From a virus (Duplodnaviria; Heunggongvirae; Uroviricota; Caudoviricetes), in IMG/VR virus record IMGVR_UViG_3300034019_002140: a stretch of DNA of 64,000 nucleotides. One strand, 5' to 3'. The translations under genes and the position numbers were made by a program. The notes beneath the pieces are model-generated. The model searched no databases, had not been told where the DNA came from, and saw only the letters and a program-made list of their open reading frames with translations. Shown here in pieces: positions 1 through 57,046 of this stretch; position 1 is the stretch's first letter, and each line of letters opens with the position of its first letter.

Positions 1-1
1 A

Positions 2-2593
2 CCTTCTAGTCCTACTCCAACTCAGACCCAAACCCCAAATACTACTCCAACTCAAACACCGACACCCACAAGTACCCCTTTGAATATTGTCCAATTCCAA
101 GATTGTGATAATTTAGAATTTATCTTTAGATTCGGTGGTCCATCAATGATGGCATTACCCTTGGATGAAACATATTACATCTCAGGAAGTTTGGAGTTTT
201 CGGGATGTGCTACAGTGGTTTCTGGATTTGAGACAGGACCAATCTATAATTCGAATGGTGTTACATTTACTAATATTGCGGGATGTGAAGCAGATGTTTG
301 TCCGAGAACTAATTGGAGGGCAGCTCTTTTTGCCAGATGTTCAGACGGGGCTGTATTATATGCCACTGTTGATGAAGATGTTGCTTTCGATGGGGCGGCC
401 TACATCTACCAAGGGGAATGTTATGAGTTTATTGAATTTTCAGGACCTGGTGGACCATATTTTGGGGAGCCTGATTTTAAAAGTTGTTTCTATTGTAAAA
501 CTACACCAACCCCCACAATTACATCAGCAACACCAACTATTACCCCCACACCTTCTCCAACTCCATCGGGTTGTACTAGCACTGATTTTTGTCTTCAAAC
601 TAATTTACCATCACTCAGTGCATACACTGGAAACTACAGTGAAGGTTCATTTTTTAACAACAGACCAACATACTCTGGTGATGGTTTAACAACCGCCGTA
701 ATTTATTATTTTACATCCTCAACAGAAAATTATTGGTGTCTTTCTGAAACTTTGGGAGGAGCCTGTATATTACAAGGTGCAACACCTTTGTACTCTAGTT
801 GTCCTGATATATCTGCGAATTTTTTCAACTCAGGTCCGTGTCCAACCCCAACTCCATCTCCATCGGCATGTACAATTGATTTTGTTGCGTATTTTGATTG
901 TGATTGGGAACCTGTACCAACCCCATCGCCTAGTATAGATTGTGATGATGTTGATTTTACATTTACAGGATTTGGACTTACACCTACACCTTCAGCAACG
1001 GTTGGTTGTTCAGGAAAAAGTGTCTTGTTCAGTGTTTTACAATCTACACCTACGGCCACACCATCACCTACTCCTACTAAAACTCCTGTTGCTTCACCCA
1101 TCCCAGCTGGTGGGTTGGTAAGTTTCAACATAGTGAATTCACCATTCAACTGTGTGAATGTGAAAATATTAGAAAATTGTTCAACAGGAGAAAGATATTA
1201 TACCGCGAGTGATTTGGTGGTCGGAAATAACGTTGTGGTACCAGGCACTGTGATTTATGCCACTCTGAACGGTAATCCTATGTGTGTAACCTACGTGGGT
1301 GATACAGAGACATTATCTCCTAACACAATAGTAACTGATATTCAAAATGTGTTTGGTAATTGTTCATTCTGTTTACCAACACAAACAGCAACAATTACTC
1401 CGACTCCGACTAAAACACCTACTGCCACTCAAACACCTACTCAAACTCAGACATCCACTCAAACACCTACTCAAACTCCGACGAGAACACCACAAATTAC
1501 ACCAAGTCCAACTCAATCAATTGGAGCAACACCTGAACCCACTCCCACTCAAACACCGACCATGACCAAAACACCTACTAATACCCCATCTATTACACCA
1601 TCTAATACACCTACACCAAGTTGTGCGGCATGTATAAACTATTTGGTTTTGATTGACGATGGTTCACCTAATTATAATCAATATTCATTTGAGTATTTCA
1701 GTTGTGATGGTACGTTGGAAACAACATTATTGGCTAACCAAGCTAAAAATGCGGTTTGTGCAGTTGAGGGTACCTTGGTTTGCACCGAATTGGTTCCACC
1801 GCCATTTATTGCGAGTCAAAGGGGATTCTGTGGTAACATTTGTACACCACCACCAACACCATCTGCAACACCAACTATTTATTATGTTTTCAAACAATGT
1901 GACCAAATAGACAGTGCCACAATTGTTTTCCAAACGTCACCACTTCAGTTCCCAATTACACTGAATAAAACTTTCAGACAAGGAAATTATTGTTGGGAAT
2001 ATTTGGGTATTGTGACAACACCATATTCAAATCCTGGTACTACACAAATAATTTGGACAGGTAACTATTTCGCAGGATTCGGACAAGTACAATACAATGA
2101 TTGTACAACATGTTTATCACAGACAGTTCCTGTAACGTTCCAATGGTCAGTGGAGGAATCAATAGATTTAATTATACCAAGCGGTAATACAACAAACTTG
2201 AATAGTCCCAACTATGGAACTAAGTTTACCACAGGTGACCCTAACTTCAATTTCGAATTGTTCCCTGACTCAGAGGTGATTGCTGGAGGTGGAGTAGTTT
2301 CGAAACTTGTAAACATACCAATATCAGGCGGGACTTCTTATCAGTATGATTTTATAGATTTAGGTGTAATAATTTCAGCGAGTACACCTTACTTAGTATT
2401 CAACGTGAACACTTACATAAACAACGTATTTATTGGTACTAAAGTAGAATTTAGACCAAACAATTTATCGATTCCAAATGGTGAGATTTTAACATCAGTA
2501 TTGTCTGATATAAATTGTATATCAGTACCTTGTCCTAAAGATTTGAGTGCGGGTGACATAATATATTTCGAAATAACTTATCCACAATCATAA
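2..2593 (+). CDS. 5'-truncated large modular structural protein: Cys-rich globular modules joined by Pro/Thr (PTPTPS) linkers, fibre/adhesin-like. The reading frame is open from window position 2.
   Basis: The frame beginning at nt 2 (PSSPTPTQTQTPNTTPTQTPTPTST...) runs without a stop into the ORF-track ORF 80..2593, so the gene begins upstream of the window. There are multiple PT-rich linkers between Cys-containing modules. Confidence 0.6.
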   Translation, partial: PSSPTPTQTQTPNTTPTQTPTPTSTPLNIVQFQDCDNLEFIFRFGGPSMMALPLDETYYISGSLEFSGCATVVSGFETGPIYNSNGVTFTNIAGCEADVCPRTNWRAALFARCSDGAVLYATVDEDVAFDGAAYIYQGECYEFIEFSGPGGPYFGEPDFKSCFYCKTTPTPTITSATPTITPTPSPTPSGCTSTDFCLQTNLPSLSAYTGNYSEGSFFNNRPTYSGDGLTTAVIYYFTSSTENYWCLSETLGGACILQGATPLYSSCPDISANFFNSGPCPTPTPSPSACTIDFVAYFDCDWEPVPTPSPSIDCDDVDFTFTGFGLTPTPSATVGCSGKSVLFSVLQSTPTATPSPTPTKTPVASPIPAGGLVSFNIVNSPFNCVNVKILENCSTGERYYTASDLVVGNNVVVPGTVIYATLNGNPMCVTYVGDTETLSPNTIVTDIQNVFGNCSFCLPTQTATITPTPTKTPTATQTPTQTQTSTQTPTQTPTRTPQITPSPTQSIGATPEPTPTQTPTMTKTPTNTPSITPSNTPTPSCAACINYLVLIDDGSPNYNQYSFEYFSCDGTLETTLLANQAKNAVCAVEGTLVCTELVPPPFIASQRGFCGNICTPPPTPSATPTIYYVFKQCDQIDSATIVFQTSPLQFPITLNKTFRQGNYCWEYLGIVTTPYSNPGTTQIIWTGNYFAGFGQVQYNDCTTCLSQTVPVTFQWSVEESIDLIIPSGNTTNLNSPNYGTKFTTGDPNFNFELFPDSEVIAGGGVVSKLVNIPISGGTSYQYDFIDLGVIISASTPYLVFNVNTYINNVFIGTKVEFRPNNLSIPNGEILTSVLSDINCISVPCPKDLSAGDIIYFEITYPQS

Positions 2594-2594
2594 T

Positions 2595-2807
2595 ATGTCA
2601 AAACTTATTTCAATAGATGCGGTTACAGGTACCTCTCCATATGATGTCTACATATGTGATGAACTCGGTACAAATTGTTTCTATATAACAGAAACATCAA
2701 CAATACCTTTCACTTTTGAAATACCAAAACCTTACGACGAACTTACTGTTTATATGTTAAAATTAGTCGATGCTCAAGGTTGCCAAATAATCAATACTGC
2801 AGAATGA
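2595..2807 (+). CDS. Small structural-associated protein. Its ~60-aa domain is paralogous to the N-terminus of the next gene.
   Basis: [32 protein letters not shown] aligns with [31 protein letters not shown] in the next ORF. It starts 2 nt after the stop of the upstream gene. Confidence 0.4.
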
Positions 2808-3460
2808 GTGAACAAATAACCATAAAATCTTTAACTGCTAACACCCCCGTAGACATTTATTATTGTGACGCAATGAGTGCCTCATGTGTGTACGTCTCAA
2901 CAGTTGCGACTTTTCCATTTGTTTTTGATGTTCCAGTGCCTTATTGTGACTCTGATTTCATAATAAAAATTGTTGATACTCAGGGTTGTGAGTTAGGTTT
3001 ACCATTTCCGATTACTCCCACACCTACACCGAGTTTTACTCCAACACCAACCATAAGCCCAACTCAAACTCTAACTCAAACACAAACACCCACGGTTTCA
3101 CCAACACAATCACCGAGTAATACTCCAACTTTAACATCTACTCCCACCCAAACACCTACTATTTCTGTGACACCAAACATCGCCTCACATGCTGTGGGTC
3201 AGGGTTGTACAGATAGAACGTGGCCTTCATCAGGTGAATGTTGTAACGACCATGTAACAATTCAAAATTATTATACTTATATTGCCGAAGCTAACTTAGT
3301 ACCTGTTGTAGGTGCTAAAGTTTATACAGTACAAAATAATTCTGTTCTTTATTCACCGTTCAATGGTGGAAGTAATTGGTTACTTATGGAGTTCAATGGA
3401 AACAACTATTCAGTCCAAATTGATTCTTCAGGAATTATCTTGGATTATGGTTTATGTTGA
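2804..3460 (+). CDS. Modular structural protein: paralogous N-terminal domain, PT linker, then a C-terminal domain.
   Basis: The ATG at 2804 overlaps the TGA of the upstream gene (ATGA coupling). The ORF-track start at 2780 lies inside the upstream gene and is less likely. A PT-rich linker is present ([19 protein letters not shown]...). Confidence 0.5.
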
Positions 3461-3517
3461 TTTTAGATTTATAAAATAATTCTAATCCTTATAATTATAG
3501 GATATACATTAGTTTAA

Positions 3518-5623
3518 ATGTCGTGTTCTAAGTATCTTATTTATAGTGAAAATGATGGTAATTGGTACGCCACCCATTGTGGTGGTACAGATGCAAGTGG
3601 ACCTATAGTAGGTGGTACTGCAGTTTATACAGATTGTATTATTGATGGAACTTTAGCTACTTCAAGAGGAACAATAATTTTAGAAATCACAGATTGTGTG
3701 GATACAACACCCACACCTACACCTGTGGTCTGTGGTCAAGGTATAACCGATGTAGGTTATTATTATACAGACTGCTGTGGAAATTTCGTAAGAGGTAATA
3801 CTCCAGGACAGATAGTTTCATTAAACTACGGTCTACCATACAACGGAATTAAAATTCTGAATGTTCCTACTTCAGAAATTTGTGCAACTCCTACCCAAAC
3901 TCCTACAACCTCCCAAACTCCCACTCCAACACCTAATTCAACCCCAACTCTAACGCCATCAATAACACAAAGTGCAACACCAACACTCACACCAACACCA
4001 AGTCAAACTCCTGCAGTTGTTTACTATAACGAGTGTGAACCTATTACTATTTTTCCTATGGAAATTGAGTGTATAACAGTTCAAAATCCAACTACTTCAA
4101 CTTCTTTTGATGGTATTTTATATGTAAATGTCACTGGTGGTACCCCTCCTTATAATTTTTATTGGAATACCGGTGAAAGAAGTCAGACTATTTCAAATGC
4201 ACCTGTGGGAAACTATACGGTTCTTGTAATAGATTACTATGGAGACTTTTCAGCAACAACAACATGTTCGTTGATTGGGCCCACTTCAACTGCTACTCCG
4301 ACACCTACTCTTACAATGACACCAACGCCAAGTTTGAGTTTAACAAGTTTGTGTCTGTTATTCACACCTCTTGGAAGCTACGGTTCATCAGGTCAACAAG
4401 CGGGTCTTCAGCTTACTTTCGTTCCATCGGGTAATGCTAATGGTAAACCAACATGGTATAATAGTTCTCAGAACCTGACTATCACTTGGTCAATTACGAA
4501 CAATAGATGGGAAATAACTAATTGGAGTTACGGAGGTATACCAGTAAACACAAATCCAAGCTTGATACCTTCGAGTGGTTGGGTGATTTTAGGTACACCA
4601 ACAACTTATGGAACAATTATCTCAACAGTTGGTAATTGTCCAACAGTGACTCCTCTTACATACACTTTACAAGTAGTACCTTCAAGTTGTAATACAGGTA
4701 CTTGTACTGGCTCAATTTTTGTAAACACTCAAGGAGGTGTTCCCCCATATTCATATTCAATCGATTCGCAAAACTACCAATCAAGTAATATATTCTTGAA
4801 TCTTTGTCCAACTACATATGGACTAATAGTCAAAGACTCTTTGGGAACTATACTTACCCAATCTGTGACAATAACATATAATTCTACCTTTACAACTTAT
4901 ACATTATCACTTGTTGTCGACGGAGTGACAAATCTGAATCAAAACACTAGAAGGATAGACTGGCATGTAGAAGTGGTGCCACCTCTACCTGCGGGACCTT
5001 CTATCGAATTTACTTATTTGGTCAATTCGGTACAACAAAAACAAGGACCTTTTAATGCTAGTCCTAACACGACTATGACAATTACAAGTTCTAACAACAT
5101 AGAAAAGAACCAAGTGCCGATTGTTTTGGCTGTGAATTCAACTTCAGTTCAAACATTACCTAATGTGTGTTCTCCTTCGACTTTGACTATGGAACAAACT
5201 TCCATTTCTCAAAGTAAAAATGTTACTATATCTGCAAACGATACGTTCAGTGGTAATTCTTTATCATTCATTGATGTGTTCAATCCTACTACTCAGGACA
5301 ATTGTGTGTCTACAGGGGTACAAGATATTGGTATTTCATTGCAGAATGTTACGTTAAAGGGTGGAGTTTGTGCGAATGTTGAATATATTCAGGAACCTAT
5401 AACACTCACTCACAGAGTTGTTGGCGTTTTGACTAGTTTGGCCTGTTTAGCTTATACTTGTACGCCTTCAACACCATATGGATTGAGTATCGAGTGGGAA
5501 GATTGTAATGGAAATTACACAACTCAAACATTCTTTGGGGCTACAACTGTTTGTGCAAGGGAAGGTACTTTGAACATAACCAACGGCTCAGGTATAATAC
5601 AAAACATAGGAAGTTGTTCATAA
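3518..5623 (+). CDS. Large PT-linker modular protein carrying two SprB-type repeats and a C-terminal Cys domain shared with the minus-strand gene 57045..58253. Putative adhesin / receptor-binding protein.
   Basis: GGTPPYNFYWNTGERSQTISNAPVGNYTVLVIDYYG and GGVPPYSYSIDSQNYQSSNIFLNLCPTTYGLIVKDSLG match the SprB repeat pattern (GG-x-PY-x-Y-W ... G-x-Y-x-V-x-V-x-D). The C-terminus SIEWEDCNGNYTTQTFFGATTVCAREGTLNITNGSG is similar to SIEWFDCGGSYFTQTFSGQLTICTDGSGYTVTIG in the 57045 gene. Confidence 0.6.
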   Translation: MSCSKYLIYSENDGNWYATHCGGTDASGPIVGGTAVYTDCIIDGTLATSRGTIILEITDCVDTTPTPTPVVCGQGITDVGYYYTDCCGNFVRGNTPGQIVSLNYGLPYNGIKILNVPTSEICATPTQTPTTSQTPTPTPNSTPTLTPSITQSATPTLTPTPSQTPAVVYYNECEPITIFPMEIECITVQNPTTSTSFDGILYVNVTGGTPPYNFYWNTGERSQTISNAPVGNYTVLVIDYYGDFSATTTCSLIGPTSTATPTPTLTMTPTPSLSLTSLCLLFTPLGSYGSSGQQAGLQLTFVPSGNANGKPTWYNSSQNLTITWSITNNRWEITNWSYGGIPVNTNPSLIPSSGWVILGTPTTYGTIISTVGNCPTVTPLTYTLQVVPSSCNTGTCTGSIFVNTQGGVPPYSYSIDSQNYQSSNIFLNLCPTTYGLIVKDSLGTILTQSVTITYNSTFTTYTLSLVVDGVTNLNQNTRRIDWHVEVVPPLPAGPSIEFTYLVNSVQQKQGPFNASPNTTMTITSSNNIEKNQVPIVLAVNSTSVQTLPNVCSPSTLTMEQTSISQSKNVTISANDTFSGNSLSFIDVFNPTTQDNCVSTGVQDIGISLQNVTLKGGVCANVEYIQEPITLTHRVVGVLTSLACLAYTCTPSTPYGLSIEWEDCNGNYTTQTFFGATTVCAREGTLNITNGSGIIQNIGSCS

Positions 5624-5647
5624 TCAAAAATTCAATATTTATTTTAG

Positions 5648-7894
5648 ATGTCATATATTATAAAAAATACTTCAGGTTTAATTAGTACCAGACTTACGGA
5701 TGTAGGGAGGAGAAAAATATCTCAGGGAAATTTTCAAATTTCTTACTTTCAAATTGGTGATAGCGAAGTTAGCTATTCAGCTGCAACTCCATACAATCAG
5801 GTAAGGAACAATATTTTAATGCCATCTTTCAACGCACAAAATGATACAGGATATCCTCAATCCAACAAAGAGGAAATAAAATACCCATATTATGTACAAA
5901 GTGGTTCTGGTATTAAATATGGTATTCCATTCATGGATAGTGGATATGATATTGTTTACAACACTCAGGGTCCTAAAGGATTCTTTTCTGCATCCACAGC
6001 GACTACAATCGTACAAACAAGTTCGGCCTACACAGTAACGTCGAATTATTTCATAGATATGACTACTTTGTCTGGTCAAACAGACATTTATTTGGATTTT
6101 GATTATTGTTCTGCAACTTCAGGAACTCCAAGCATTGGTGATTTCATAACAATTTATTTTGATGGTGTTGGAGATTGTAACTCAATAAATACAGTACCTA
6201 TTCTTACATACCAAATCGTAGGTTTAGTTCCATCGACGGGAACAACCGCGCAAACACCTTGGCACGTTTATCTTGACAGACCAGTACCAAATTATACCGG
6301 AACGACTACTTCAGGAAATTATGCTCGAGCCCAAATTTATCCTTCAGGGATGACAGTTCTATATGATTCGGAGGTTCCTCAAATATATTGGGACCCAACT
6401 ACTTTGACATTTGACGAACCATGTAGTATTCTAAATAAGGAAACTCCGGTCTGGAATATGAATATTCCTTGGTCGGAAAATCCTGCAGGATTATTTCCAA
6501 GTACTTATCAAGATTATTCGACTTACTCTGCGGTAACTTATTTAGGTAGTAAAGAATACTTTGGTTACCAAGAGTCTTCAGGTCAAACCTTTTTTGTTTC
6601 TAATAGATTCAGTGCCGAAACTACTGACACCTACTACTACAATTCATATGATGAAAAAATAAATGTTTTACCAAAAAATCAAAAAGCGATTGCAATAGTA
6701 CATTTCACTAATCAGGATATTGATTTTCCTTATGGTGAAAAGTTTGCAACTTTACCTTTTGACCCTCAAAACCCAACTAACCAGACTGGTTTGGCTAGAC
6801 ACCTGAAAGTAAAACTTCCCACTTTAATGTGGCACAAATCCACGGGAAATACTATTGGTCAAACTTTTATGATTGACCCACCAGGTTATAATCTATGTGT
6901 CCCACATTACATGAAATCATCTAAGAATCCTGATATGAACGACCCGGGTTTAAGGTACTTCCAATTGTGGGATTTGAACCCAGATACGAATGGTAATTTA
7001 AACAGGGTTGGTAAAGTTTTTCCTGATTCTCAGACAATTATTTTTGATGACGAAGAGATTGTTGCGGCTATGTCTTATAAAGCTAACAGAAATTGGACAC
7101 TACCTGCACCCCGTCTTTCAACTGTTCCACCAAACCTTTGTGATTCTAATCAAACAGGTACGCCATTGTTCACAAATCCAAGTGAGAGACTTTGGTTGAC
7201 GTATTTGTTCACGAATACAGGATTTACCAATTCTCTACATTGTAATTATTATTCACAAGTATTGGCTCCTACAGGTACCTCTGTAACGAATCCTTTCAAC
7301 GTCATTACAAAATTTGGACCTGAGTTTCCTTTTATGAGTCAAAATTTTGGACCAATACCTTTGAGTGGTTTCACAGGATTTGTTGCCAACAATTTGATTC
7401 TTCTCGTACAGAAAGTAACGGGTGATACTAAACCCTCTTCAACCTCTTGGAGAAGAATTGACGTCACTAATTCTATGAGTGCAAATACCATAAATGGATA
7501 TTTGACAATGAGTGGAATGACAGGAACTACCTTCCAAATTGATGGCGACATGTACAACGCCGCAGCCTCCAATTTGTATAATTTAGCTAACTACATAAAT
7601 ATTCCTCTTTGGGGTGCTACAGGTCAAACATTGAATTTCGGTCAGGAATACTATTTCTATGGTAATTTTGAAACGGACATTTCGGCAACAATATACGAAA
7701 TGAGATACAAAGTTACACTCGGAAGAAATCAATTCACAAATACAACAAATCCGACTTGGCAATCGGGGACCACTTCATACATTACTGAAATAGGTCTATT
7801 TGACGAAAATTATGATTTGTTAGTTCTATCAAAATTACAATCCCCCCAAATTAGACAGGGTATTCAGCAATTTTTGGTCAAATTAGATTTCTAA
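5648..7894 (+). CDS. Large hypothetical protein (748 aa), probably virion/structural.
   Basis: Long uninterrupted ORF following the fibre-like genes. No motif recognised. Confidence 0.5.
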   Translation: MSYIIKNTSGLISTRLTDVGRRKISQGNFQISYFQIGDSEVSYSAATPYNQVRNNILMPSFNAQNDTGYPQSNKEEIKYPYYVQSGSGIKYGIPFMDSGYDIVYNTQGPKGFFSASTATTIVQTSSAYTVTSNYFIDMTTLSGQTDIYLDFDYCSATSGTPSIGDFITIYFDGVGDCNSINTVPILTYQIVGLVPSTGTTAQTPWHVYLDRPVPNYTGTTTSGNYARAQIYPSGMTVLYDSEVPQIYWDPTTLTFDEPCSILNKETPVWNMNIPWSENPAGLFPSTYQDYSTYSAVTYLGSKEYFGYQESSGQTFFVSNRFSAETTDTYYYNSYDEKINVLPKNQKAIAIVHFTNQDIDFPYGEKFATLPFDPQNPTNQTGLARHLKVKLPTLMWHKSTGNTIGQTFMIDPPGYNLCVPHYMKSSKNPDMNDPGLRYFQLWDLNPDTNGNLNRVGKVFPDSQTIIFDDEEIVAAMSYKANRNWTLPAPRLSTVPPNLCDSNQTGTPLFTNPSERLWLTYLFTNTGFTNSLHCNYYSQVLAPTGTSVTNPFNVITKFGPEFPFMSQNFGPIPLSGFTGFVANNLILLVQKVTGDTKPSSTSWRRIDVTNSMSANTINGYLTMSGMTGTTFQIDGDMYNAAASNLYNLANYINIPLWGATGQTLNFGQEYYFYGNFETDISATIYEMRYKVTLGRNQFTNTTNPTWQSGTTSYITEIGLFDENYDLLVLSKLQSPQIRQGIQQFLVKLDF

Positions 7895-7949
7895 TCTATT
7901 CATTACTTGCACAAGTAGGTTATATTTTTATCTATTATTCATTTAATAC

Positions 7950-8570
7950 ATGAGAAGTGGTAAAAAAAACAAAAAAGATGTTAAAATAGATTCACCCAAA
8001 GTTTTGGGATTGGACGTTTCTACTAAAACAATAGGATTTGCTTTATTTGATATTGGAACCAAAAATTTGTTGGAATTGACTCACGTTTCACCTCGACCAA
8101 TAAAAAAAACTGAAAGTAAAATTGAAGAATTACTTTTGAAAAGTCAGGTGTTCAGAAAAAAACTTGAACAATACGTAGGTTTGGGAATCGAGAAAGTTAT
8201 AATTGAAGAACCATTATTGAACTCCAACAACATATATACAGTTGGAACTCTGATGAGATATAACACACTCATTTGTAGGGAGATTTATGATATATTAAAC
8301 ATAGTACCTGAGTTCATCTCAACATATAATTCAAGGAAGTTCGCCTTCCCTCATTTAGTTCAAAAAAACGACAAAGGAAAATTTGTTCTTTTTGGGGCAC
8401 ACCCAAAAGATTGTGATAAAAAGATGATTATTTGGGAACTTGTTGCAAAAAGAGAACCTCAAATTACGTGGCAGTACACTAGAAATAATACCCTGAGTAA
8501 AGAAAATTTTGACCAAACCGATGCTTACTGTGCGGCGTTGGGCTATATGAAGTCAAAAGAAATTTGGTGA
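7950..8570 (+). CDS. RuvC-like Holliday junction resolvase.
   Basis: N-terminal VLGLDVSTKTIGFALFD resembles RuvC motif I (hhGIDpG..t.G%a). There is an acidic IEEPLL segment and a C-terminal DAYCAALGYM, consistent with RuvC-fold catalytic residues. Confidence 0.5.
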   Translation: MRSGKKNKKDVKIDSPKVLGLDVSTKTIGFALFDIGTKNLLELTHVSPRPIKKTESKIEELLLKSQVFRKKLEQYVGLGIEKVIIEEPLLNSNNIYTVGTLMRYNTLICREIYDILNIVPEFISTYNSRKFAFPHLVQKNDKGKFVLFGAHPKDCDKKMIIWELVAKREPQITWQYTRNNTLSKENFDQTDAYCAALGYMKSKEIW

Positions 8571-8585
8571 TTTTTTTAAATTTAC

Positions 8586-8593
8586 TATCTTTG
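8586..8593 (+). promoter_or_regulatory. Bacteroidetes sigma-A -7 promoter motif TAnnTTTG (TATCTTTG) upstream of gene 8598.
   Basis: Exact match to the -7 consensus, 5 nt before the ATG. The same extended motif nnTATCTTTGT recurs at 55680, 56105, 58702, 62892 and 63653. Confidence 0.4.
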
Positions 8594-8597
8594 TGTT

Positions 8598-8960
8598 ATG
8601 TTACAAATGCAAAGAAGCGAACAAGCGCTCGAAAAAAGATATTTCATTAAAAAGTTTTCTACAGGTATAAAAGTAGATACTCAAAAGATTCGAGGACATT
8701 TCACAATTACAAGTTATAGGAAGTATTCTTACAAAGAAGAAGTTGATGTAGTTTTCAAAGGAGAAATTTTCTGTAAGATTGGAAGAACTCCGGCTCAGTG
8801 GTATGGAAATGAAATTATCGGTATCTATAAGAATATATCTAAGGTCAAATTGAATAGGTTACTTCGTAAAAGTTTATTCGAAGACGTTCGTAGAAGGTGC
8901 AGACTTTTCTCTGCTGACCTTTGGACTTACCATGATATAAAAAAAATAAAATGGAATTGA
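8598..8960 (+). CDS. Hypothetical protein.
   Basis: ORF preceded by a promoter motif. Basic protein. Confidence 0.35.
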   Translation: MLQMQRSEQALEKRYFIKKFSTGIKVDTQKIRGHFTITSYRKYSYKEEVDVVFKGEIFCKIGRTPAQWYGNEIIGIYKNISKVKLNRLLRKSLFEDVRRRCRLFSADLWTYHDIKKIKWN

Positions 8961-8961
8961 T

Positions 8962-9144
8962 ATGGAACTTGTAAAATTTTTGGTCACCGTTTGGTTTATC
9001 TTATTTTGTATCTTCGCTATTGGATTCTTTTTTGGAGTTATAATTGAAAATCATCTCAATGAAACAAACCCAATCAAGAAATGGTGGAGGAAACATATTG
9101 TTGCCCCCGACCCAGATGACAGTTGGAAAAATTTCAGAGGATAA
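8962..9144 (+). CDS. Small membrane protein.
   Basis: Hydrophobic helix FLVTVWFILFCIFAIGFFFGVII. Confidence 0.3.
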   Translation: MELVKFLVTVWFILFCIFAIGFFFGVIIENHLNETNPIKKWWRKHIVAPDPDDSWKNFRG

Positions 9145-10058
9145 TGCAAGACGAAGTCGAAGTATTGGTTGAATTACTTACTGATGTGCTTGGCGACCCC
9201 CATAATCATTATGAGTCCAAGGCGCAGATATCATTCGATTGTCCAGTCTGTGCGGCAGAAAAGGGTCTCGAAAACGGTGATGGTAAAGGTAACCTCGAAA
9301 TAAATTACTCAAGACATGTTTATAAATGTTGGGCTTGTGGTGAAACCTTGGGCACACATGGTCCCTTAGGTAAATTATTTGACAAATTCGGAACTAAAAA
9401 ACAAAAAAAGGTATATGAACTCATAAAACCTGAAGAACTCAAACAAGAGGAAAAGAAACGTGTCTGGTTCAGACTTCCAGAAGGGTACATGACGTTCAAA
9501 GATTCAAATCCAAGATTCATACCTCACATCGAAGCTTACAATTATTTAAAAAGTAGAGGTATCACCGATGAAATAATTGAGAAATATAAGATAGGTTATA
9601 CGGTGAAGGGGGATTTTGCTTACAGGATAATTGTTCCATCATACAATGCGGAAGGTCAATTAAATTATTTTGTGGCTAGGTCATGGACAAACAAGAAGAT
9701 GAAATATAAAAACCCGACCGCACAAAAAGACGAAATCATTTTCAATGAGGGTCTAATTGATTGGAACAAAGATATTTTCTTGGTCGAGGGAGTTTTTGAC
9801 TCATTCTTCTTGGAAAATCCAATTGTTATGTTGGGAAAAAAAATGAGTAGACTACTATTCGAAAATCTGTATAATAGGGCAAACGGAAACATTATAGTTT
9901 GTTGTGATGGAGATGCTTGGGAGGATGGTTTAAAAATCTATCATGAACTAAACGGAGGTAGACTCTATAACAAGGTAAAAATTGTCAAGTTACCTCGTGA
10001 TAAAGATATTTGTGATTTGAAAGGTCAAATTGATGAATATTATTTTGAGATAAAATAA
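9123..10058 (+). CDS. DNA primase with an N-terminal zinc-binding domain and a Toprim domain.
   Basis: CPVCAAEKG...CWACGETLG forms a CxxC...CxxC zinc finger. The Toprim acidic motifs are LVEGVFDSFF (E-G-x-x-D) and CCDGDAWEDG (DxD). Confidence 0.7.
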   Translation: MEKFQRIMQDEVEVLVELLTDVLGDPHNHYESKAQISFDCPVCAAEKGLENGDGKGNLEINYSRHVYKCWACGETLGTHGPLGKLFDKFGTKKQKKVYELIKPEELKQEEKKRVWFRLPEGYMTFKDSNPRFIPHIEAYNYLKSRGITDEIIEKYKIGYTVKGDFAYRIIVPSYNAEGQLNYFVARSWTNKKMKYKNPTAQKDEIIFNEGLIDWNKDIFLVEGVFDSFFLENPIVMLGKKMSRLLFENLYNRANGNIIVCCDGDAWEDGLKIYHELNGGRLYNKVKIVKLPRDKDICDLKGQIDEYYFEIK

Positions 10059-11103: not shown

Positions 11104-11133
11104 TAAAATTTACTATATTTAAAAAAAACCGTT

Positions 11134-16128: not shown

Positions 16129-16136
16129 TACTTTTG
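16129..16136 (+). promoter_or_regulatory. -7 promoter motif TACTTTTG upstream of gene 16141.
   Basis: Matches TAnnTTTG, 4 nt before the ATG. Confidence 0.35.
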
Positions 16137-16140: not shown

Positions 16141-16614
16141 ATGCAAATATTTCTACCCTATCCTGACTTTAGAGCATCTCTTCAAACATTGGATAATAAG
16201 AGATTGGGTAAACAGAGAGTTGAAACATATCAAATAATCTCTGCAATCACACGTAGACCAAAACTTGACGGTTCTCCATACAAAGGATGGTTGAATCATC
16301 CTTGTACTGTGATGTGGAAAGATTATGTGGATGCTCTCAAAGTCTATATGAATATTTCAATTGAAGAATGGATTGGTCGAGGTTTCAAGAACACCATGGC
16401 AATTGAGACTATTCCAAAATTAGTTACTTATCCACCATTCATTGGTAATGAAAGATTTCATTCCTCTCACAGAGCTAATCTATTGAAGAAAGAACCTGAA
16501 TTTTACGTCAAATATAATTGGGTTGAGAATCCTGAAGACCCTTATGTTTGGATGGATGGTGAGGGTAAATGGTATGAACAACACAGTGGAAAAAAAGGAA
16601 GAGTTTATATTTGA
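16141..16614 (+). CDS. Hypothetical protein. The N-terminal pattern loosely resembles the bacterial Pyr_excise-like conserved-protein family.
   Basis: MQIFLPYPDF...LDNKRLGKQRVE...GW.NHP..VMW. This is weak pattern recognition only. Confidence 0.35.
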   Translation: MQIFLPYPDFRASLQTLDNKRLGKQRVETYQIISAITRRPKLDGSPYKGWLNHPCTVMWKDYVDALKVYMNISIEEWIGRGFKNTMAIETIPKLVTYPPFIGNERFHSSHRANLLKKEPEFYVKYNWVENPEDPYVWMDGEGKWYEQHSGKKGRVYI

Positions 16615-16635
16615 TTTTTACATACATTTGCAATT

Positions 16636-18641: not shown

Positions 18642-18649
18642 TACATTTG
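18642..18649 (+). promoter_or_regulatory. -7 promoter motif TACATTTG upstream of gene 18656.
   Basis: Matches TAnnTTTG, 6 nt before the ATG. Confidence 0.35.
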
Positions 18650-19154: not shown

Positions 19155-19952
19155 ATGAAAGAAAAATCAGTTATTCCAATCAATCAAGAAGAAATTGCGG
19201 TTTATCTCAAAGACATTCGTAAAATATCAGTTATGACCCCTGAAAGAGAAAGGGAGTTGGCTGAAAGAATGTTATCAAATAACATTTCGGAACGAGAAAA
19301 GGAAGATATCAAAAAAGAACTTGTTGAAGGCAATTTAAGGTTTGTTATCACAGTTAGTAAACAATATCAAAATCAGGGTTTAGATTTTCCTGACTTGATT
19401 GCTGAAGGGAATTATGGTCTAATGAAAGCTATTGATAATTTTGATTGGTCGAAAAAACTAAGATTTATATCATACGCTGTTTGGTGGATTAGACAGTCGA
19501 TTCTACAATCATTGAATGAAAATGCAAGAACTATTCGCCTTCCCGTAAATGTTGTCCAAGAACTTCAGAAAGCTAAAAAGGAACTTGAAAATGCCGGTGT
19601 AGAGTTACCTGAAAAGTTCGTGAATTTACCATACACTGTAAATCTAGATAGTCCTTTGAATGAGGATGGAGACACTCTAATGGATGTATTAGTAAACCCA
19701 AACGCCGAATCTGCAGACTCCAATCTTTCTACGGAGCAAACTCTAAAAGACAAATTACTTGGTATGTTGGATGTACTTGACGAACGCGAAAGGGTTATAG
19801 TTGAGGATTATTTTGGGTTATCGGGTTCAACACGAACCTTGGAAGATATTGGTAATGATTTTGATTTGACTAAAGAAAGGGTAAGACAAATAAAAGAGAA
19901 GGCTTTACGAAAACTTCGAAATGAAACAGGTAGTCTGTTCGACTACATGTAA
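19155..19952 (+). CDS. Sigma-70 family RNA polymerase sigma factor with regions 2 and 4.
   Basis: Region 2 is GNLRFVITVSKQYQNQGLDFPDLIAEGNYGLMKAIDNFDWSKKLRFISYAVWWIRQSI. Region 4 HTH is TLEDIGNDFDLTKERVRQIKEKALRKLR. Confidence 0.8.
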   Translation: MKEKSVIPINQEEIAVYLKDIRKISVMTPERERELAERMLSNNISEREKEDIKKELVEGNLRFVITVSKQYQNQGLDFPDLIAEGNYGLMKAIDNFDWSKKLRFISYAVWWIRQSILQSLNENARTIRLPVNVVQELQKAKKELENAGVELPEKFVNLPYTVNLDSPLNEDGDTLMDVLVNPNAESADSNLSTEQTLKDKLLGMLDVLDERERVIVEDYFGLSGSTRTLEDIGNDFDLTKERVRQIKEKALRKLRNETGSLFDYM

Positions 19953-27661: not shown

Positions 27662-28579
27662 ATGAAAAATTACTACAAATTATTAGAAGTTGAAGAGAAT
27701 GCTTCAGAAGATGATATAAAAAAGAGTTATAGAAACCTGTCAAAAAAATATCATCCAGACTTGAACCCTCAAGGGGCGGAGAAATTCAAGGAAATCAATG
27801 AAGCATATGAAGTCCTGAGTAACAAGGAAAAAAGAAAGAAATATGATTTTCAGAAATCTAATCCCTACAACGGAAGTGAATTTTCGGACTTTTTCGCATC
27901 TATGTTTTCGAACCAAAATTTCCAACCACCAAGGAACCATCCAGCACCAGATAAGATTTTGAATCTTCAATTGACCCCTTTAGAATCATATTTAGGACAA
28001 GAAAAAAATATTCAATATTTCAGGGAACTTCATTGCGATACTTGCGTAGGAACAGGAGGGGACAGGGCAATTTGTGGATTATGTGAAGGTACAGGTTTTA
28101 TTGTGAAAACATTCGGTACAGGATTTTTAGTTCAACAGGTCCGGATGGCATGTCCAAATTGCGAGGGACGGGGATATAATCTCATAAATAAATGTTATAA
28201 GTGTTCAGGTAAAGGTACCTTAGGTAATGCAAATGAAATAAAGATAAACATACCTAAAGGTATTGATAGTGGACAATTCGTGAGAATACGGGGTATGGGG
28301 GACTATAGAAATGGTAATTATGGTGACCTCTTGATTCAGATAGAATTGAAAAGTTCCGAAGGATTCGAAAAAATGGGTAGTGATTTAGTATATAACCTTT
28401 ATCTCAATTATGAGGACCTATTGAAGGATAAATATTCAATACCACACCCAGATGGAGAACTTATAGTTCCCGCTCCGAAAAATTTTGACACTTCGAAGCC
28501 TTTGAGGCTTAGGGGTAAGGGATACAGTTCAGGAGACATGTTCATCAAAATACATGTCAAATTTGATAGACCTACTTGA
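27662..28579 (+). CDS. dnaJ: DnaJ (Hsp40) co-chaperone with a J domain and a CR-type zinc finger.
   Basis: J domain NYYKLLEVEENASEDDIKKSYRNLSKKYHPDLNP (HPD motif). Four CxxCxGxG repeats follow (CDTCVGTG, CGLCEGTG, CPNCEGRG, CYKCSGKG), then a C-terminal beta-domain. Confidence 0.85.
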   Translation: MKNYYKLLEVEENASEDDIKKSYRNLSKKYHPDLNPQGAEKFKEINEAYEVLSNKEKRKKYDFQKSNPYNGSEFSDFFASMFSNQNFQPPRNHPAPDKILNLQLTPLESYLGQEKNIQYFRELHCDTCVGTGGDRAICGLCEGTGFIVKTFGTGFLVQQVRMACPNCEGRGYNLINKCYKCSGKGTLGNANEIKINIPKGIDSGQFVRIRGMGDYRNGNYGDLLIQIELKSSEGFEKMGSDLVYNLYLNYEDLLKDKYSIPHPDGELIVPAPKNFDTSKPLRLRGKGYSSGDMFIKIHVKFDRPT

Positions 28580-28933: not shown

Positions 28934-28941
28934 TATATTTG
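28934..28941 (+). promoter_or_regulatory. -7 promoter motif TATATTTG immediately upstream of gene 28946 (leaderless or very short leader).
   Basis: Matches TAnnTTTG, 4 nt before the ATG. Confidence 0.3.
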
Positions 28942-31180: not shown

Positions 31181-31197
31181 TTACTAAATTTGTTTTT

Positions 31198-34878: not shown

Positions 34879-37800
34879 ATGGGAAAAAATATTTTAATTG
34901 TTCCGAGTAATTTCACTGAGAGGACTGCTAACCGTACTCCATTTATAAGTTATGAGGGTACCACGGGTCAGGTTATTCTGACGGTTACACCTTCAGGTAA
35001 AATTAAATTCAGCGGTAATACTGTTGGTGATACAAATTTGATGACAGTAGACCCTGCAAATTCTACAGTTTCAGTAAACACTATTTTTGTAGGAAATTAC
35101 CTTGCAATAGGAGGGGTTCAGGTAATAAATGCCACAAACAATTGGATTGGACCCACAACAGGTATAGCTGGTTCTCAGGGTGCAAAAGGATTCAACGGAA
35201 ATACAGGTCCTACGGGTGCAATAGGTAACACAGGAGCACAAGGTGCTATTGGTGCTGCAGGCGCCACAGGACCTCAAGGTGCTCAAGGTACATTTGGGCC
35301 TAAGGGTGCTCAAGGAACTGCCGGAGCACAAGGAAATACGGGTGCTCAAGGTAACAATGGACCCAAGGGTGCCACAGGAGCACAAGGGTCAGCAGGTGCG
35401 CCAGGTAATACAGGTAACCCTGGACCTACAGGACAAAGTGGACACCCTGGTCCACAAGGACCAACGGGAGCCGTTGGTAATACAGGAGCACAGGGTGCGA
35501 TTGGGGTTACAGGACCCACAGGTAATACAGGTGCTCAAGGACCTGTAGGACCAACAGGTGGACAAGGTGCTCAAGGACCACAAGGAGCTCAAGGTCCAAA
35601 AGGATTTTCAGGTGCACAAGGTGCAACAGGAAACACAGGTGGAACAGGACCCACAGGAAATACAGGACATCCTGGCGCTCAGGGTGCTACAGGAAATCCT
35701 GGACCTACGGGTGTCACAGGGTCTCAAGGAGCCGTTGGACCCACCGGTGCTATAGGAGCTCAAGGACCCAAAGGAGCACAAGGGAATACTGGAAACACAG
35801 GGGCACAAGGAGCCACAGGAAATCCTGGTCCACAAGGTTTCACAGGTAATGTTGGTGCGGTAGGGCCCACAGGTGCGATTGGTCCAAAGGGACCACAAGG
35901 ACCTACAGGAAATACAGGTAATGTGGGACCACAAGGTGCCACAGGTACCACAGGCCCAACAGGTGATACAGGAGCTACAGGACCTGCAGGACCACAAGGT
36001 GCTGTGGGACCAAAAGGAGACACAGGTAATACGGGGGCTCAGGGTGCTGTGGGGCCACAAGGAGCAACTGGTCCGACAGGACTTTCAGGTGCTCAAGGTG
36101 CCCAAGGTGGGGTAGGACCGACAGGGGCTACAGGACCACAAGGAGCTCAAGGACCTGCGGGTAATACGGGTCATTCTGGTGCACAAGGTGCTACAGGACC
36201 AACAGGGCCTGGAGGTAACACAGGTGCTCAAGGGGCGGTTGGACCGAAAGGGGCTACAGGACCTCAGGGAGCTCAAGGACCCGCAGGTGGTACAGGTAAC
36301 ACAGGGGCTCAGGGTGCCACAGGACCACAAGGTTCGCAAGGGGCGGGTGGTGGAACAGGTCATCCAGGTGCCCAAGGTCCCCAAGGAGCGATAGGACCAC
36401 AAGGTTCACAAGGAGCCACAGGACACACTGGTGCTCAAGGCCCACAAGGTGCCACAGGACCACAAGGCTCACAAGGGGCTACAGGACATCCTGGTGCCCA
36501 AGGTAGTCAGGGTGCGGCCGGACCAAAAGGACCTAATGGATTCACAGGTCATCCTGGAGCGCAAGGACCGCAAGGTTCAGCGGGAGCAACGGGTGCTCAA
36601 GGTCAGACAGGTCATCCGGGGGCACAAGGTGCAGGTGGACCTACTGGGTCTCAAGGACAAGGGGGTGGTACAGGACATCCTGGAGCTCAAGGTGCCATAG
36701 GACCCAAAGGACCTCAAGGACCTACAGGTGCTACTGGCCATCCTGGTGCTCAAGGTGCTGGTGGAGGTACTGGTAACGAGGGGGCACCAGGTTTCACAGG
36801 ACATCCAGGTGCACAAGGTGCTACAGGACCAGGAGGTAGTCCGGGTGCTCAGGGTTCACAAGGTTCCCAAGGACCTCAAGGAGCTCAAGGAAATACCGGT
36901 CCGACCGGCGTACCGGGAGCTACGGGGCATCCTGGTGCTCAAGGAGCGGTCGGTCCAACTGGCCCACAAGGTCCGTCAGGTAATACAGGACATCCTGGTG
37001 CACAGGGAGCAACGGGTCCTACAGGACCTCAAGGAAATACAGGTGCCACGGGTGCTATTGGACCCCAAGGTGCGGGAGGTGCCACAGGCTCACAAGGGGC
37101 TGTAGGACCTCAAGGAGCAACTGGAGCCACAGGAGCCCAAGGTCCACAAGGTCCAGGTGGTCCTACAGGACCTGGCGGGGCACAAGGTGCTCAAGGAGGA
37201 GGAGGTGCCACAGGACCTCAAGGACCACAAGGTCCAAAGGGACCTCAGGGTGCTACAGGTCCTACAGGGGGTCCTGGTCCAACTGGACCACAAGGTCCTC
37301 AGGGACCAACAGGAGCACCTGGACCTACAGGTGCCACAGGACCACAAGGTCCTACAGGTGGTCAAGGTACACAAGGCTCATTAGGTGCAACAGGAGGGCA
37401 GGGTGCTCAAGGTTCCCAAGGAGCTGTTGGACCTGGAGGTGTAACATGTCAACTGAATAGTATTATTGCTCTTACAGGAAGTAGAAACCCATGTGTAGGT
37501 GTTTGTAATATCACTGTACCCAACGTTTATCCATACACTCAAACTGCTTACACAGCCACACAAAACAAATATTTCGATGCTACGAATTGTTCAAATGGTA
37601 CTTGTGATTGGAATACTTATAACTGGGAACAATGGAATAGTGCATGTTATTCATTAAACGCCACTTGTGGTAATGGTACCTATCAGCAGGCTTGTGCTTA
37701 TTCTGACGTGAAACTTAAAACAGGTATTGAAACCTTGAAAGATTCTCTTATAAAAATATTGGAAATAGAAACTGTTGAGTATGATTGGAACGAAAAAAAT

Positions 37801-38040
37801 TGGGGTACCAAAGAAGAGTATGAATATTTTGCTCAGATGGGAAGATTACATCAGATAGGTCTAATTGCACAAAACGTAAGAATTCATTTCCCTGAAGCTG
37901 TTGGAATCGGTCCTGATGGATATTATTACATTGACTACAAGAAATTAAATTCTGTTGTAGTTGAAGGTATAAAAGAACAACAAGTATTTATTGAAGAGAT
38001 AACTAAACAAGTAGACGAATTAGAAATTAAATTGAGATAA
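34879..38040 (+). CDS. Collagen-like fibre protein 1: N-terminal domain, ~800 aa of G-X-Y repeats, a Cys-rich knob, and a C-terminal peptidase-S74 intramolecular chaperone domain.
   Basis: Continuous G-X-Y triplets ([25 protein letters not shown]...). The C-terminus [12 protein letters not shown]...VEYDWN...IGLIAQNV...FPEAV...[20 protein letters not shown] matches the phage fibre intramolecular-chaperone domain. Confidence 0.8.
35140..37440 (+). repeat. Collagen-like G-X-Y triplet repeat array in fibre gene 1.
   Basis: 9-nt ggt-nnn-nnn periodicity over ~2.3 kb. Confidence 0.8.
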
Positions 38041-57014: not shown

Positions 57015-57046
57015 CTGACCGTCTCTACGGTTGGGGTTTTTTATTT
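57015..57046 (+). terminator. Rho-independent terminator closing the + strand ncRNA locus.
   Basis: GACCGTCTCTACGGTT stem-loop followed by GGGGTTTTTTATTT. Confidence 0.55.

What the first reader, a model, noticed from the sequence alone, without database searches (positions are those of the whole stretch)
4079..4870. SprB-type repeats (from the Bacteroidetes gliding-motility adhesin family) inside a phage structural protein
Two segments of the 701-aa protein (GGTPPYNFYWNTGERSQTISNAPVGNYTVLVIDYYG and GGVPPYSYSIDSQNYQSSNIFLNLCPTTYGLIVKDSLG) follow the SprB repeat signature (GG-x-PY-x-Y-x-W ... G-x-Y-x-V-x-V-x-D). SprB repeats are characteristic of Flavobacterium/Bacteroidetes cell-surface adhesins. 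Their presence in a phage fibre- or adhesin-like protein suggests host-derived domain capture for receptor binding and points to a Bacteroidetes host. The same protein shares a C-terminal Cys domain with the distant minus-strand gene 57045..58253. This implies a family of modular adhesins assembled by domain shuffling through PT linkers.
Basis: partly seen in the sequence, partly recalled or inferred. Interest (0 to 1): 0.6.

Follow-up and report, generated by a model that had tools for sequence, protein, structure and literature searches.

The report
SprB-like domains in jumbo-phage adhesin
A 701-residue protein of an uncultivated freshwater jumbo phage carries two immunoglobulin-like 'SprB' domains of the kind found in Bacteroidota surface adhesins, but it is an old, conserved phage protein with no export signal (probably a virion adhesin), not a freshly captured host gene, so this is a sound annotation and not a surprise.

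Summary
ORF 3518..5623 (+, 701 aa) hits Pfam SprB (PF13573) just above the curated cut-off (29.5 vs 28 bits, two stretches). Both segments match many repeats of genuine bacterial SprB arrays (36-50% identity). AlphaFold2 models both as ~80-residue beta-sandwiches.

The protein belongs to a large, uncharacterised metagenomic family found on IMG/VR viral contigs up to 321 kb. The family has a fixed core architecture and conserved gene order. So the SprB domains are an old, inherited part of this phage lineage, not a recent capture.

All 117 aligned members lack a signal peptide, a membrane segment and a T9SS sorting domain. The protein is therefore not a SprB-type adhesin.

A Bacteroidota host is supported independently. 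62 of 66 genes lack a Shine-Dalgarno motif. The Bacteroidetes promoter element TAnnTTTG is about six-fold enriched just upstream of start codons. The closest cultured-phage primase is from a Flavobacterium phage.

The shared C-terminal Cys module is real and has a third copy in the upstream giant gene.

Virion location is inferred, not shown. Verdict: new member of a known kind (phage surface proteins with Ig-like domains); modest interest.

The parts
3518..5623 (+). Gene for the 701-aa modular, all-beta, Cys-rich (24 Cys) protein with PT linkers. It has no signal peptide and no membrane segment.
3518..3703 (+). N-terminal Cys module (aa 1-62). It is variable or absent among homologues.
   Evidence: alignment A1; model pLDDT 81-89
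3731..3883 (+). Conserved Cys module 'CGxG..YYYTDCCGNF..C' (aa 72-122), with invariant C72, C86, C87 and C122. Mean pairwise identity in the family is 57%.
3887..4015 (+). Long Pro/Thr linker (aa 124-166), predicted disordered.
4028..4273 (+). SprB-type Ig-like domain 1 (aa 171-252). The signature GGTPPYNFYW...GNYTVLVIDYYG lies at aa 207-242 (nt 4136..4243). This is the most conserved part of the protein (63% mean identity).
4274..4336 (+). Pro/Thr linker (aa 253-273).
4349..4642 (+). Trp-rich beta domain (aa 278-375) between the two SprB domains, with invariant W324, W331 and W355. It has no match in bacterial SprB arrays.
4646..4882 (+). SprB-type Ig-like domain 2 (aa 377-455). The signature GGVPPYSYSI...YGLIVKDSLG lies at aa 407-444 (nt 4736..4849). 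The best Pfam stretch is aa 384-416.
4883..5437 (+). Large beta-sandwich domain of about 185 aa (aa 456-640). It is the least conserved core domain (36% mean identity). The model has pLDDT 94.5. Fold matches are generic and adhesin-like.
5435..5620 (+). C-terminal Cys module (aa 640-701). It is present only in the closest relatives (P0002, P0004, P0021, P0025) and is replaced by unrelated tails in other homologues.
57072..57230 (-). Paralogous copy of the C-terminal Cys module, at the end of the 402-aa PT-linker protein (gene 57045..58253).
   Evidence: BLASTP E = 6e-7; HMM E = 8.8e-18
1625..1786 (+). Third copy of the Cys module, inside the giant PT-linker ORF that is cut by the window start (2..2593; 1639 aa in the same phage on L001).
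   Evidence: HMM E = 4.4e-6
2780..3460 (+). Upstream conserved gene for a small PT-linker protein (218-226 aa). It is part of the syntenic block.
5648..7894 (+). Downstream 748-aa orphan protein. It always lies next to the SprB-domain gene and is much more conserved (62-66% identity).

Best explanation
ORF 3518..5623 encodes a conserved modular protein of an uncultivated clade of freshwater jumbo phages (contigs up to ~320 kb) that most probably infect Bacteroidota. The protein is a string of small beta domains joined by flexible Pro/Thr linkers. In order: a variable N-terminal Cys module, a conserved Cys module, a SprB-type Ig-like domain, a Trp-rich domain, a second SprB-type Ig-like domain, a large variable beta-sandwich, and an exchangeable C-terminal module. 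It has no export signal, so it can reach the outside only on the virion or after lysis. The most likely function is a virion-surface adhesin, either a fibre or side-fibre component or a decoration protein. On this reading the Ig-like SprB domains act as spacers or weak glycan binders, and the variable distal sandwich and terminal modules tune specificity, as in other phage proteins with Ig-like domains. Shown here: the domain identities, the family conservation, the synteny, the absence of secretion signals, and the Bacteroidota-type expression signals. Inferred: virion location, the adhesin role, and an ancient shared origin of the SprB domains with Bacteroidota adhesins.
For: SprB identity: Pfam 29.5 bits against a cut-off of 28. 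Both repeats match genuine bacterial arrays at 36-50% identity, and giant multi-repeat proteins match the same two segments. The models are ~80-aa beta-sandwiches with pLDDT above 90. The best PDB match is the GhpA grappling-hook fragment of Aureispira (9flw_A, E = 2e-6). [quoted passage not shown]

Phage family: more than 750 homologues and at least 382 IMG/VR viral contigs, some up to 321 kb. Synteny is conserved: [variable giant protein]-~70 aa-~215 aa-[this gene]-[735-748 aa]-...-primase.

Adhesin-like context: in relatives, the upstream genes encode Laminin_G_3, PKD and DUF285 proteins. Collagen/S74 fibre genes lie in the window.

Conservation falls from the conserved Cys module and SprB1 towards the C terminus: 57%, 63%, 47%, 51% and 36% mean identity, followed by non-homologous tails. 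This is the pattern seen in receptor-binding proteins.

None of 117 members has a signal peptide or a membrane segment, and no T9SS domain is found.

Among 50,697 phage records, the only matches to the SprB segment are nine records (five distinct phages), all from Flavobacteriia phages. They lie in virion proteins near the tape-measure gene; those of phage phi19:1 were detected in virions by mass spectrometry. PHROG 26672, 'virion structural protein', hits at E = 6e-8. BFVD matches include 'SprB repeat [uncultured Caudovirales phage]' at E = 7.5e-22, Hoc, and a T5-like decoration protein.

Host: 62 of 66 genes lack a Shine-Dalgarno motif. TAnnTTTG occurs 11 times in the 40 nt before starts against ~2 expected, 0 of 2000 shuffles reach 11, and 7 of the 11 sit at -12 to -14. 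The best cultured-phage primase hit is Flavobacterium phage vB_FspM_immuto.
Against: There is no direct evidence that the protein is in virions. No capsid, portal, terminase, sheath or baseplate gene was recognised in the 64-kb window. The genes just downstream are for replication and repair (RuvC-like nuclease, primase, exonuclease). The cultured-phage virion proteins share only one 45-50-aa stretch and do not reach Pfam SprB at E <= 0.1. The Pfam score is barely above threshold. The N terminus, where fibres usually attach to the virion, is variable here, which is atypical for a tail fibre. The host assignment rests on sequence signals, not on a host link such as CRISPR spacers. The only full-length hits in cellular genomes are two 5-6-kb contigs binned into a 'Bacteroides sp.' MAG, which is weak evidence.
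Confidence: 0.6

Rival explanations
1. Recent host-derived capture: the phage lately copied SprB repeats from its host's gliding adhesin to gain receptor binding.
For: Cellular relatives of the two segments are overwhelmingly in Bacteroidota. The best local identity of the phage repeats to repeats of giant proteins is 53-58% over 45-52 aa. That is about as high as the identity among the phage repeats themselves, so exchange between phage and host pools cannot be excluded.
Against: Both domains occupy fixed positions in an architecture shared by all 117 aligned homologues, which are only 36-70% identical overall, with invariant signature residues. Relatives occur on at least 382 viral contigs. 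The two domains are not adjacent and share only a 16-aa BLAST match. Bacterial arrays, by contrast, are tandem with a 77-78-aa period. No flanking bacterial sequence, signal peptide or T9SS domain came along.
Confidence: 0.1
2. Non-virion protein: a cytoplasmic or lysis-released factor. It might bind host envelope glycans or the host's own SprB/T9SS surface layer, for example to block superinfection, to aggregate debris as a decoy, or to act as a scaffold, without being part of the particle.
For: The gene lies at the border of a replication and repair block. No recognisable virion gene is adjacent. There is no signal peptide. The variable N terminus is unlike a classical fibre anchor.
Against: An all-beta, 24-Cys, PT-linked, Ig-rich architecture is typical of extracellular proteins and is ill suited to the reducing cytoplasm. 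Neighbouring genes in relatives are adhesin or fibre-like (Laminin_G_3, PKD). The only annotated phage proteins with any similarity are virion components.
Confidence: 0.2
3. Capsid decoration protein of the Hoc/pb10 type and not a tail or fibre protein: Ig-like domains displayed on the head for weak adherence to polysaccharide or mucus-like matrices.
For: The family profile gives a weak match to the Ig domain of T5 decoration protein pb10 (5lxk, E = 0.19, same GGTxPYxYxW...GxYxVxVxD pattern). BFVD matches include Hoc and a T5-like 'decorating protein'. The conserved central core with variable ends would fit a capsid-binding core.
Against: The matches are confined to the Ig fold and have poor E-values. 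No similarity to the capsid-binding parts of Hoc or pb10 was found. The neighbouring genes look like fibres or adhesins, not head genes.
Confidence: 0.15
4. Chance or low-complexity artefact: the Pfam hit is a borderline false positive driven by the Thr/Pro/Gly-rich composition.
For: The score exceeds the gathering threshold by only 1.5 bits. PT linkers do cause spurious hits, for example PHROG 15511 in the neighbouring genes and 8zvk in the PDB search.
Against: The matched segments lie outside the PT linkers. They match dozens of repeats in genuine arrays at 36-50% identity. They fold as confident beta-sandwiches. Their signature residues are invariant across the family.
Confidence: 0.02

Closest known systems
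SprB gliding adhesin of Flavobacterium johnsoniae and SprB-like T9SS giants such as GhpA of Aureispira (PDB 9flw)
   Same: Same repeat family (PF13573). The repeat is an Ig-like beta-sandwich of ~77-80 aa with conserved Cys and the GG-x-PY...G-x-Y-x-V-x-V-x-D signature. The phage repeats are 36-50% identical to bacterial repeats, and GhpA is the best solved-structure match.
   Different: The phage protein has only two repeats, and they are not adjacent, whereas the bacterial proteins have tens in tandem. It is 701 aa against ~6000 aa. It has no Sec signal and no T9SS C-terminal sorting domain. It is encoded in a phage genome among phage genes. Its Cys modules, Trp-rich domain and 185-aa sandwich have no counterpart in the bacterial arrays tested.
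Phage surface proteins with Ig-like domains: T4 Hoc and T5 pb10 (PDB 5lxk)
   Same: Ig-like domains displayed on an otherwise phage-specific protein. pb10's Ig domain shows the same motif pattern in a weak profile match. Hoc and a T5-like decoration protein appear among the BFVD fold matches.
   Different: There is no detectable homology outside the Ig fold. Capsid binding is not shown. This protein is larger, rich in Cys and joined by PT linkers.
Virion proteins Cellulophaga phage phi19:1 gp98 and Polaribacter phage P12002L gp28 (PHROG 26672)
   Same: These are the only cultured-phage proteins with any sequence match to the SprB segment. All are from Flavobacteriia phages. They are of similar size (679-707 aa). 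Cellulophaga phi19:1 gp98 was found in virions by MS/MS; Polaribacter P12002L gp28 carries the 'virion structural protein' label without a proteomics note. In each phage the gene lies two genes after the tape-measure gene.
   Different: The match covers only 45-50 aa (40-44% identity, E from 1e-3 to 1). Those proteins do not reach Pfam SprB at E <= 0.1. Their phages are ~50-kb siphoviruses unrelated to this jumbo-phage clade.
UniProt/BFVD entries named 'SprB repeat [uncultured Caudovirales phage]' (A0A6J5LDA4, A0A6J5LD72, A0A6J5MUM3)
   Same: These are the best viral fold matches (E = 7.5e-22 for a 677-aa protein). This shows that SprB repeats have already been auto-annotated in uncultured phages.
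   Different: They carry automatic names only. No study of them was found: just one paper holds both 'SprB repeat' and 'phage', and its subject is bacterial toxins, not phage proteins. Whether they are orthologues could not be checked.

Membership tests
SprB repeat domain (Pfam PF13573) | HMM score at or above the curated gathering threshold | tested here: met
   29.5 bits against a cut-off of 28, E = 5.7e-7, two stretches. Homologue L007 also scores 29.5 bits. Most of the 120 listed homologues carry a precomputed PF13573 hit.
SprB repeat domain (Pfam PF13573) | Direct similarity to repeats of genuine multi-repeat SprB proteins | tested here: met
   Each phage segment matches 3-11 repeats in each of four arrays that score 138-302 bits on PF13573. 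Giant proteins match these two segments in 20-85 stretches each.
SprB repeat domain (Pfam PF13573) | Ig-like beta-sandwich unit of about 77-80 residues | tested here: met
   The modelled domains span aa 171-252 and 377-455 with pLDDT above 90. The bacterial array period is 77-78 aa. The best PDB hit is GhpA.
SprB-type gliding or cell-surface adhesins (T9SS substrates) | N-terminal Sec signal peptide | tested here: not met
   None of 117 family members has a hydrophobic signal-like region in the first 45 aa, and none has a membrane-like segment (simple hydrophobicity rule, not SignalP).
SprB-type gliding or cell-surface adhesins (T9SS substrates) | C-terminal T9SS sorting domain (Por_Secre_tail or type B CTD) | tested here: not met
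   There is no Pfam hit other than SprB at E <= 1 and no NCBIfam hit at E <= 0.1. The C terminus is instead a Cys module shared with other phage genes.
SprB-type gliding or cell-surface adhesins (T9SS substrates) | Long tandem array of repeats in a giant protein | tested here: not met
   The protein has two non-adjacent repeats in 701 aa. The bacterial comparators have 5-10 repeats per 700-950 aa fragment.
Phage decoration proteins with Ig-like domains (Hoc, pb10) | Homology to the capsid-binding part, and location on the capsid | tested here: inconclusive
   Only the Ig domain of pb10 is matched, weakly (E = 0.19). Hoc and a T5-like decoration protein appear only as fold matches. Location cannot be tested here.
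PHROG 26672 'virion structural protein' (Cellulophaga and Polaribacter phages) | Full-length homology to the family profile | tested here: not met
   The match is limited to aa 382-460 against profile positions 212-288 of 679. tblastn matches cover 45-50 aa only.
Phage tail fibre or receptor-binding proteins (functional class) | Presence in virions and binding to a host receptor | not testable with these tools
   Only indirect support is available: adhesin-like neighbours, identity falling from the conserved Cys module and SprB1 to the C terminus with swapped terminal modules, and adhesin-like folds.

The most novel reading that the evidence does not exclude
The phage displays SprB-type domains as molecular mimics of its host's own gliding adhesin. 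The virion, or released protein, would engage the moving SprB/T9SS surface machinery of a gliding Bacteroidota host: riding the adhesin track to an entry site, or competing with host SprB for its partners and so altering host motility. The adjacent phage sugar-modifying genes would glycosylate the PT linkers into mucin-like stalks.
Probability: 0.06. Interest if true: 0.75.

Novelty: new member of a known kind. Interest (0 to 1): 0.3.

Why it matters
This gives a sound annotation and a domain map for a very widespread but unnamed protein family of freshwater jumbo phages. The family has more than 750 clusters at 90% identity and contigs up to ~320 kb. The analysis also ties the phage clade to Bacteroidota hosts using evidence independent of the protein itself. 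It identifies candidate specificity modules (a variable distal sandwich and swappable Cys modules on PT linkers) that could guide host-range studies. It does not change how phage adhesion is understood, because Ig-like domains on phage surface proteins are well known and SprB repeats are already auto-annotated in uncultured phages.

Tried and rejected
(1) Megablast of window 1-20000 and tblastn of the full protein against 50,697 phage records found nothing at E <= 1e-5, so there is no cultured relative.

(2) An exact-peptide scan of IMG/VR with the single protein found nothing. The alignment-based scan worked.

(3) Sequence searches against the PDB gave only a PT-linker artefact (8zvk) and a weak pb10 match.

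(4) A whole-model Foldseek search against the PDB returned generic multi-Ig arrays with low TM-scores, because the relative orientation of the domains is arbitrary.

(6) For the 748-aa neighbour, Pfam, PHROG, NCBIfam, single-sequence and profile searches of the PDB, and tblastn against phages all found nothing. I recalled a resemblance of its termini to the N-terminal domain of P2 tail-fibre protein H. hhalign gave only 1% probability, so I rejected this as evidence.

(7) tblastn with the phage sigma factor gave a mixed list that says nothing about the host.

(8) The sigma-70 promoter and terminator scan of 1..9200 was at chance level: 36 promoter-like sites against 32.6 expected.

(9) Percent-identity comparison could not settle whether the phage SprB repeats are older than, or derived from, the bacterial ones. 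Identities within the phage family and to the best bacterial repeats are similar.

(10) I considered a eukaryotic giant virus and rejected it, because the window encodes a sigma-70 factor and a DnaG-type primase whose best hits are phages.
Full report
WHAT IS THERE. The two quoted segments are aa 207-242 and aa 407-444, inside the reported range. Pfam gives a single family, SprB (PF13573): E = 5.7e-7, 29.5 bits against a gathering cut-off of 28, two stretches, the best at aa 384-416. PHROGs gives phrog_26672, 'virion structural protein' (E = 6e-8), but only over aa 382-460, which is the second SprB domain. NCBIfam gives nothing.

IS IT MORE THAN CHANCE? Yes. The Pfam margin is thin, but four independent checks agree.
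- Most of the 120 listed homologues carry a precomputed PF13573 hit. A homologue that is only 40% identical again scores 29.5 bits.
- In an alignment of 117 homologues the signature residues are invariant: G207, G208, P211, Y212, W216, Y233, D239, and G407, Y411, D440.
- I compared the protein with four bacterial fragments that score 138-302 bits on PF13573 with 5-10 repeats each. Each phage segment matched 3-11 separate repeats per fragment, at 36-50% identity over 52-69 aa. The other phage domains matched nothing.
- An exhaustive phmmer search of 1.84 billion representatives found 15,290 proteins at E <= 1e-3 and 1,507 at E <= 1e-30. The top of the list mixes the 560-1000-aa phage family (one long matched stretch) with giant 2000-7400-aa proteins that match aa ~180-260 and ~375-460 in 20-85 stretches each.

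ANATOMY. AlphaFold2 with the 117-sequence alignment gives an all-beta model. Mean pLDDT is 84, the domains are above 90, and only the Pro/Thr linkers at aa 125-177 and 258-271 are disordered. From the model and the alignments the modules are:
- aa 1-62: N-terminal Cys module, variable or absent in homologues.
- aa 72-122: conserved Cys module 'CGxG..YYYTDCCGNF..C'.
- PT linker.
- aa 171-252: SprB-type sandwich 1.
- PT linker.
- aa 278-375: Trp-rich beta domain.
- aa 377-455: SprB-type sandwich 2.
- aa 456-640: large beta-sandwich. Modelled separately, it has pLDDT 94.5 and pTM 0.86.
- aa 640-701: C-terminal Cys module, present only in the closest relatives and replaced by unrelated tails elsewhere.

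Mean pairwise identity in the family is 57% (Cys module), 63% (SprB1), 47% (Trp-rich domain), 51% (SprB2) and 36% (C-terminal sandwich). Conservation therefore falls from the conserved Cys module and SprB1 towards the C terminus. The protein has 24 Cys. None of the 117 members has a signal-peptide-like or membrane-like segment.

THE FAMILY AND ITS GENOME. The exact protein occurs on many metagenomic contigs, including JGI sample 3300002835. To my recollection this is a Lake Mendota freshwater metagenome; I did not verify that here. More than 750 homologues were scored, at 36-70% identity, and all come from metagenomes. IMG/VR holds at least 382 viral contigs that encode relatives, up to 321 kb long. 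Gene order is conserved even among distant members: one or more large variable proteins, a ~70-aa gene, a ~215-aa gene, this gene, a 728-748-aa gene, a RuvC-like nuclease gene, then the primase gene. In some relatives the upstream variable genes encode Laminin_G_3, PKD and DUF285 proteins.

The window looks like part of a large phage genome. It has DnaG-type primase, an SbcC-like protein, a Metallophos nuclease, T4-denV-type glycosylase, DNA methyltransferases, a sigma-70 factor, DnaJ, and three collagen plus Peptidase_S74 fibre genes. No capsid, portal or terminase gene was recognised in these 64 kb. No cultured phage is close.

HOST. Three lines of evidence independent of the SprB domains point to Bacteroidota.
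- 62 of 66 genes have no Shine-Dalgarno motif upstream, which is fewer than at random positions.
- The Bacteroidetes -7 promoter element TAnnTTTG (established knowledge for Bacteroides and Flavobacterium promoters) occurs 11 times in the 40 nt before start codons, against ~2 expected. None of 2000 shuffles reaches 11. It is the most frequent of the 30 permutations of its letters; the next has 6. Seven of the 11 copies sit at -12 to -14. The classical sigma-70 consensus is at chance level.
- The best cultured-phage match of the primase is Flavobacterium phage vB_FspM_immuto (31.8% identity, E = 2e-28).

The SprB-related evidence agrees. A scan of 185,579 species genomes listed 80 loci. Two hold full-length homologues, on 5-6-kb contigs binned into a 'Bacteroides sp.' MAG. 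Of the other 78, which match only aa ~170-455, 76 are from Bacteroidota. Among 50,697 phage records the SprB segment matches only nine, all from Cellulophaga or Polaribacter phages.

THE MODULAR FAMILY CLAIM. PT linkers occur in only four genes of the window: 2..2593, 2780..3460, 3518..5623 and 57045..58253 (-). The C-terminal Cys module of the 701-aa protein matches the C terminus of the 402-aa protein (21/43 identical, E = 6e-7). An HMM built from this module finds a third copy inside the truncated giant ORF, at nt 1625..1786 (E = 4.4e-6). Other module pairs show no significant similarity. Together with the swapped termini among homologues, this supports module shuffling on PT linkers.

WHAT IT MOST LIKELY DOES. 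The following points are shown:
- It is a conserved phage protein.
- It has an extracellular-type architecture.
- It has no export signal.
- Its neighbours are adhesin-like.
- Its host signals are of the Bacteroidota type.

The following is inferred. It is exposed on the virion as a fibre, side-fibre or decoration component. The SprB-type Ig domains serve as spacers or weak glycan binders, as in Hoc, pb10 and other phage Ig-like domains. The variable distal sandwich and terminal modules set specificity. I put this at about 0.6.

The main rival is a non-virion, lysis-released factor (0.2). A capsid-decoration role is a sub-variant (0.15). An ancient common origin with Bacteroidota adhesins is plausible, but percent identities could not resolve it.

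COMPARISON AND NOVELTY. At the domain level this is a member of the SprB repeat family. At the protein level it is not a SprB-type adhesin: signal peptide, T9SS domain and tandem array were all tested and not met. It works most like the known class of phage surface proteins with Ig-like domains. SprB repeats in uncultured phages are already auto-annotated in UniProt, but I found no paper that discusses them. The rating is therefore a new member of a known kind. The family, its Cys modules and its 748-aa partner are uncharacterised and would merit experimental work, but nothing here contradicts expectation.

Noticed in passing
window 34879..44131 (+): Three tandem genes (1053, 994 and 1035 aa) combine long collagen triple-helix repeats with a C-terminal Peptidase_S74 intramolecular chaperone domain, which is typical of phage fibres. 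Their GC content is 52-54% in a genome of ~33% GC, presumably because of Gly-X-Y codons.
   Followed up: partly
window 5648..7894 (+): The 748-aa gene that always follows the SprB-domain gene has more than 3,344 homologues. They are 63-65% identical where the SprB protein is only ~40% identical. It has no Pfam, PHROG, NCBIfam, PDB or cultured-phage match. It is a highly conserved orphan core protein about the size of some jumbo-phage capsid or sheath proteins (a recollection, not tested). A recalled resemblance to P2 tail-fibre protein H was not supported (hhalign probability 1%).
   Followed up: partly
whole window; e.g. 8586..8593, 16129..16136, 16623..16630, 18642..18649, 28934..28941, 31185..31192: Genes lack Shine-Dalgarno motifs (62 of 66). 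The Bacteroidetes promoter element TAnnTTTG sits 12-14 nt before many start codons. This implies almost leaderless transcripts and Bacteroidota-type expression.
   Followed up: yes
L001 682..3860 (same phage, upstream of the window start); L090 1..5046: Genes for hexapeptide transferase, methyltransferase, HAD/nucleotidyl-transferase and glycosyltransferase lie just upstream of the block of PT-linker proteins. The Pro/Thr linkers might be O-glycosylated by phage enzymes. This was not tested.
   Followed up: no
window 2..2593 (+): This ORF is cut by the window start. In the same phage (L001) it is 1639 aa, and in relatives it is replaced by proteins of 930-1382 aa. It is a chain of at least six Cys-containing modules on PT linkers, and one of them (nt 1625..1786) is a copy of the C-terminal Cys module.
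   Followed up: partly
L037 4..2313 (Microcoleus sp. contig); L021 5001..7094 (Sphingomonadales MAG contig): Strong SprB arrays (10 and 9 repeats, 254 and 302 bits) lie on short contigs attributed to a cyanobacterium and an alphaproteobacterium. Either the repeat is not strictly confined to Bacteroidota, or these contigs are contaminants or mis-binned.
   Followed up: no
window 19155..19952, 27662..28579, 16141..16614, 58726..59268, 62338..62862: The phage encodes a sigma-70 factor (regions 1.2, 2 and 4), a full DnaJ, a T4-denV-type pyrimidine-dimer glycosylase, an SPFH/Band-7 protein and a 2OG-Fe(II) oxygenase.
   Followed up: no
window 57045..58253 (-): The 402-aa PT-linker protein starts with GTG, and its N terminus (VNCKKYTL) resembles that of the 701-aa protein (MSCSKYLI). 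The Cys-module HMM also gives a weak match to its aa 2-26 (independent E = 0.038). The N- and C-terminal Cys modules may therefore belong to one fold family.
   Followed up: partly
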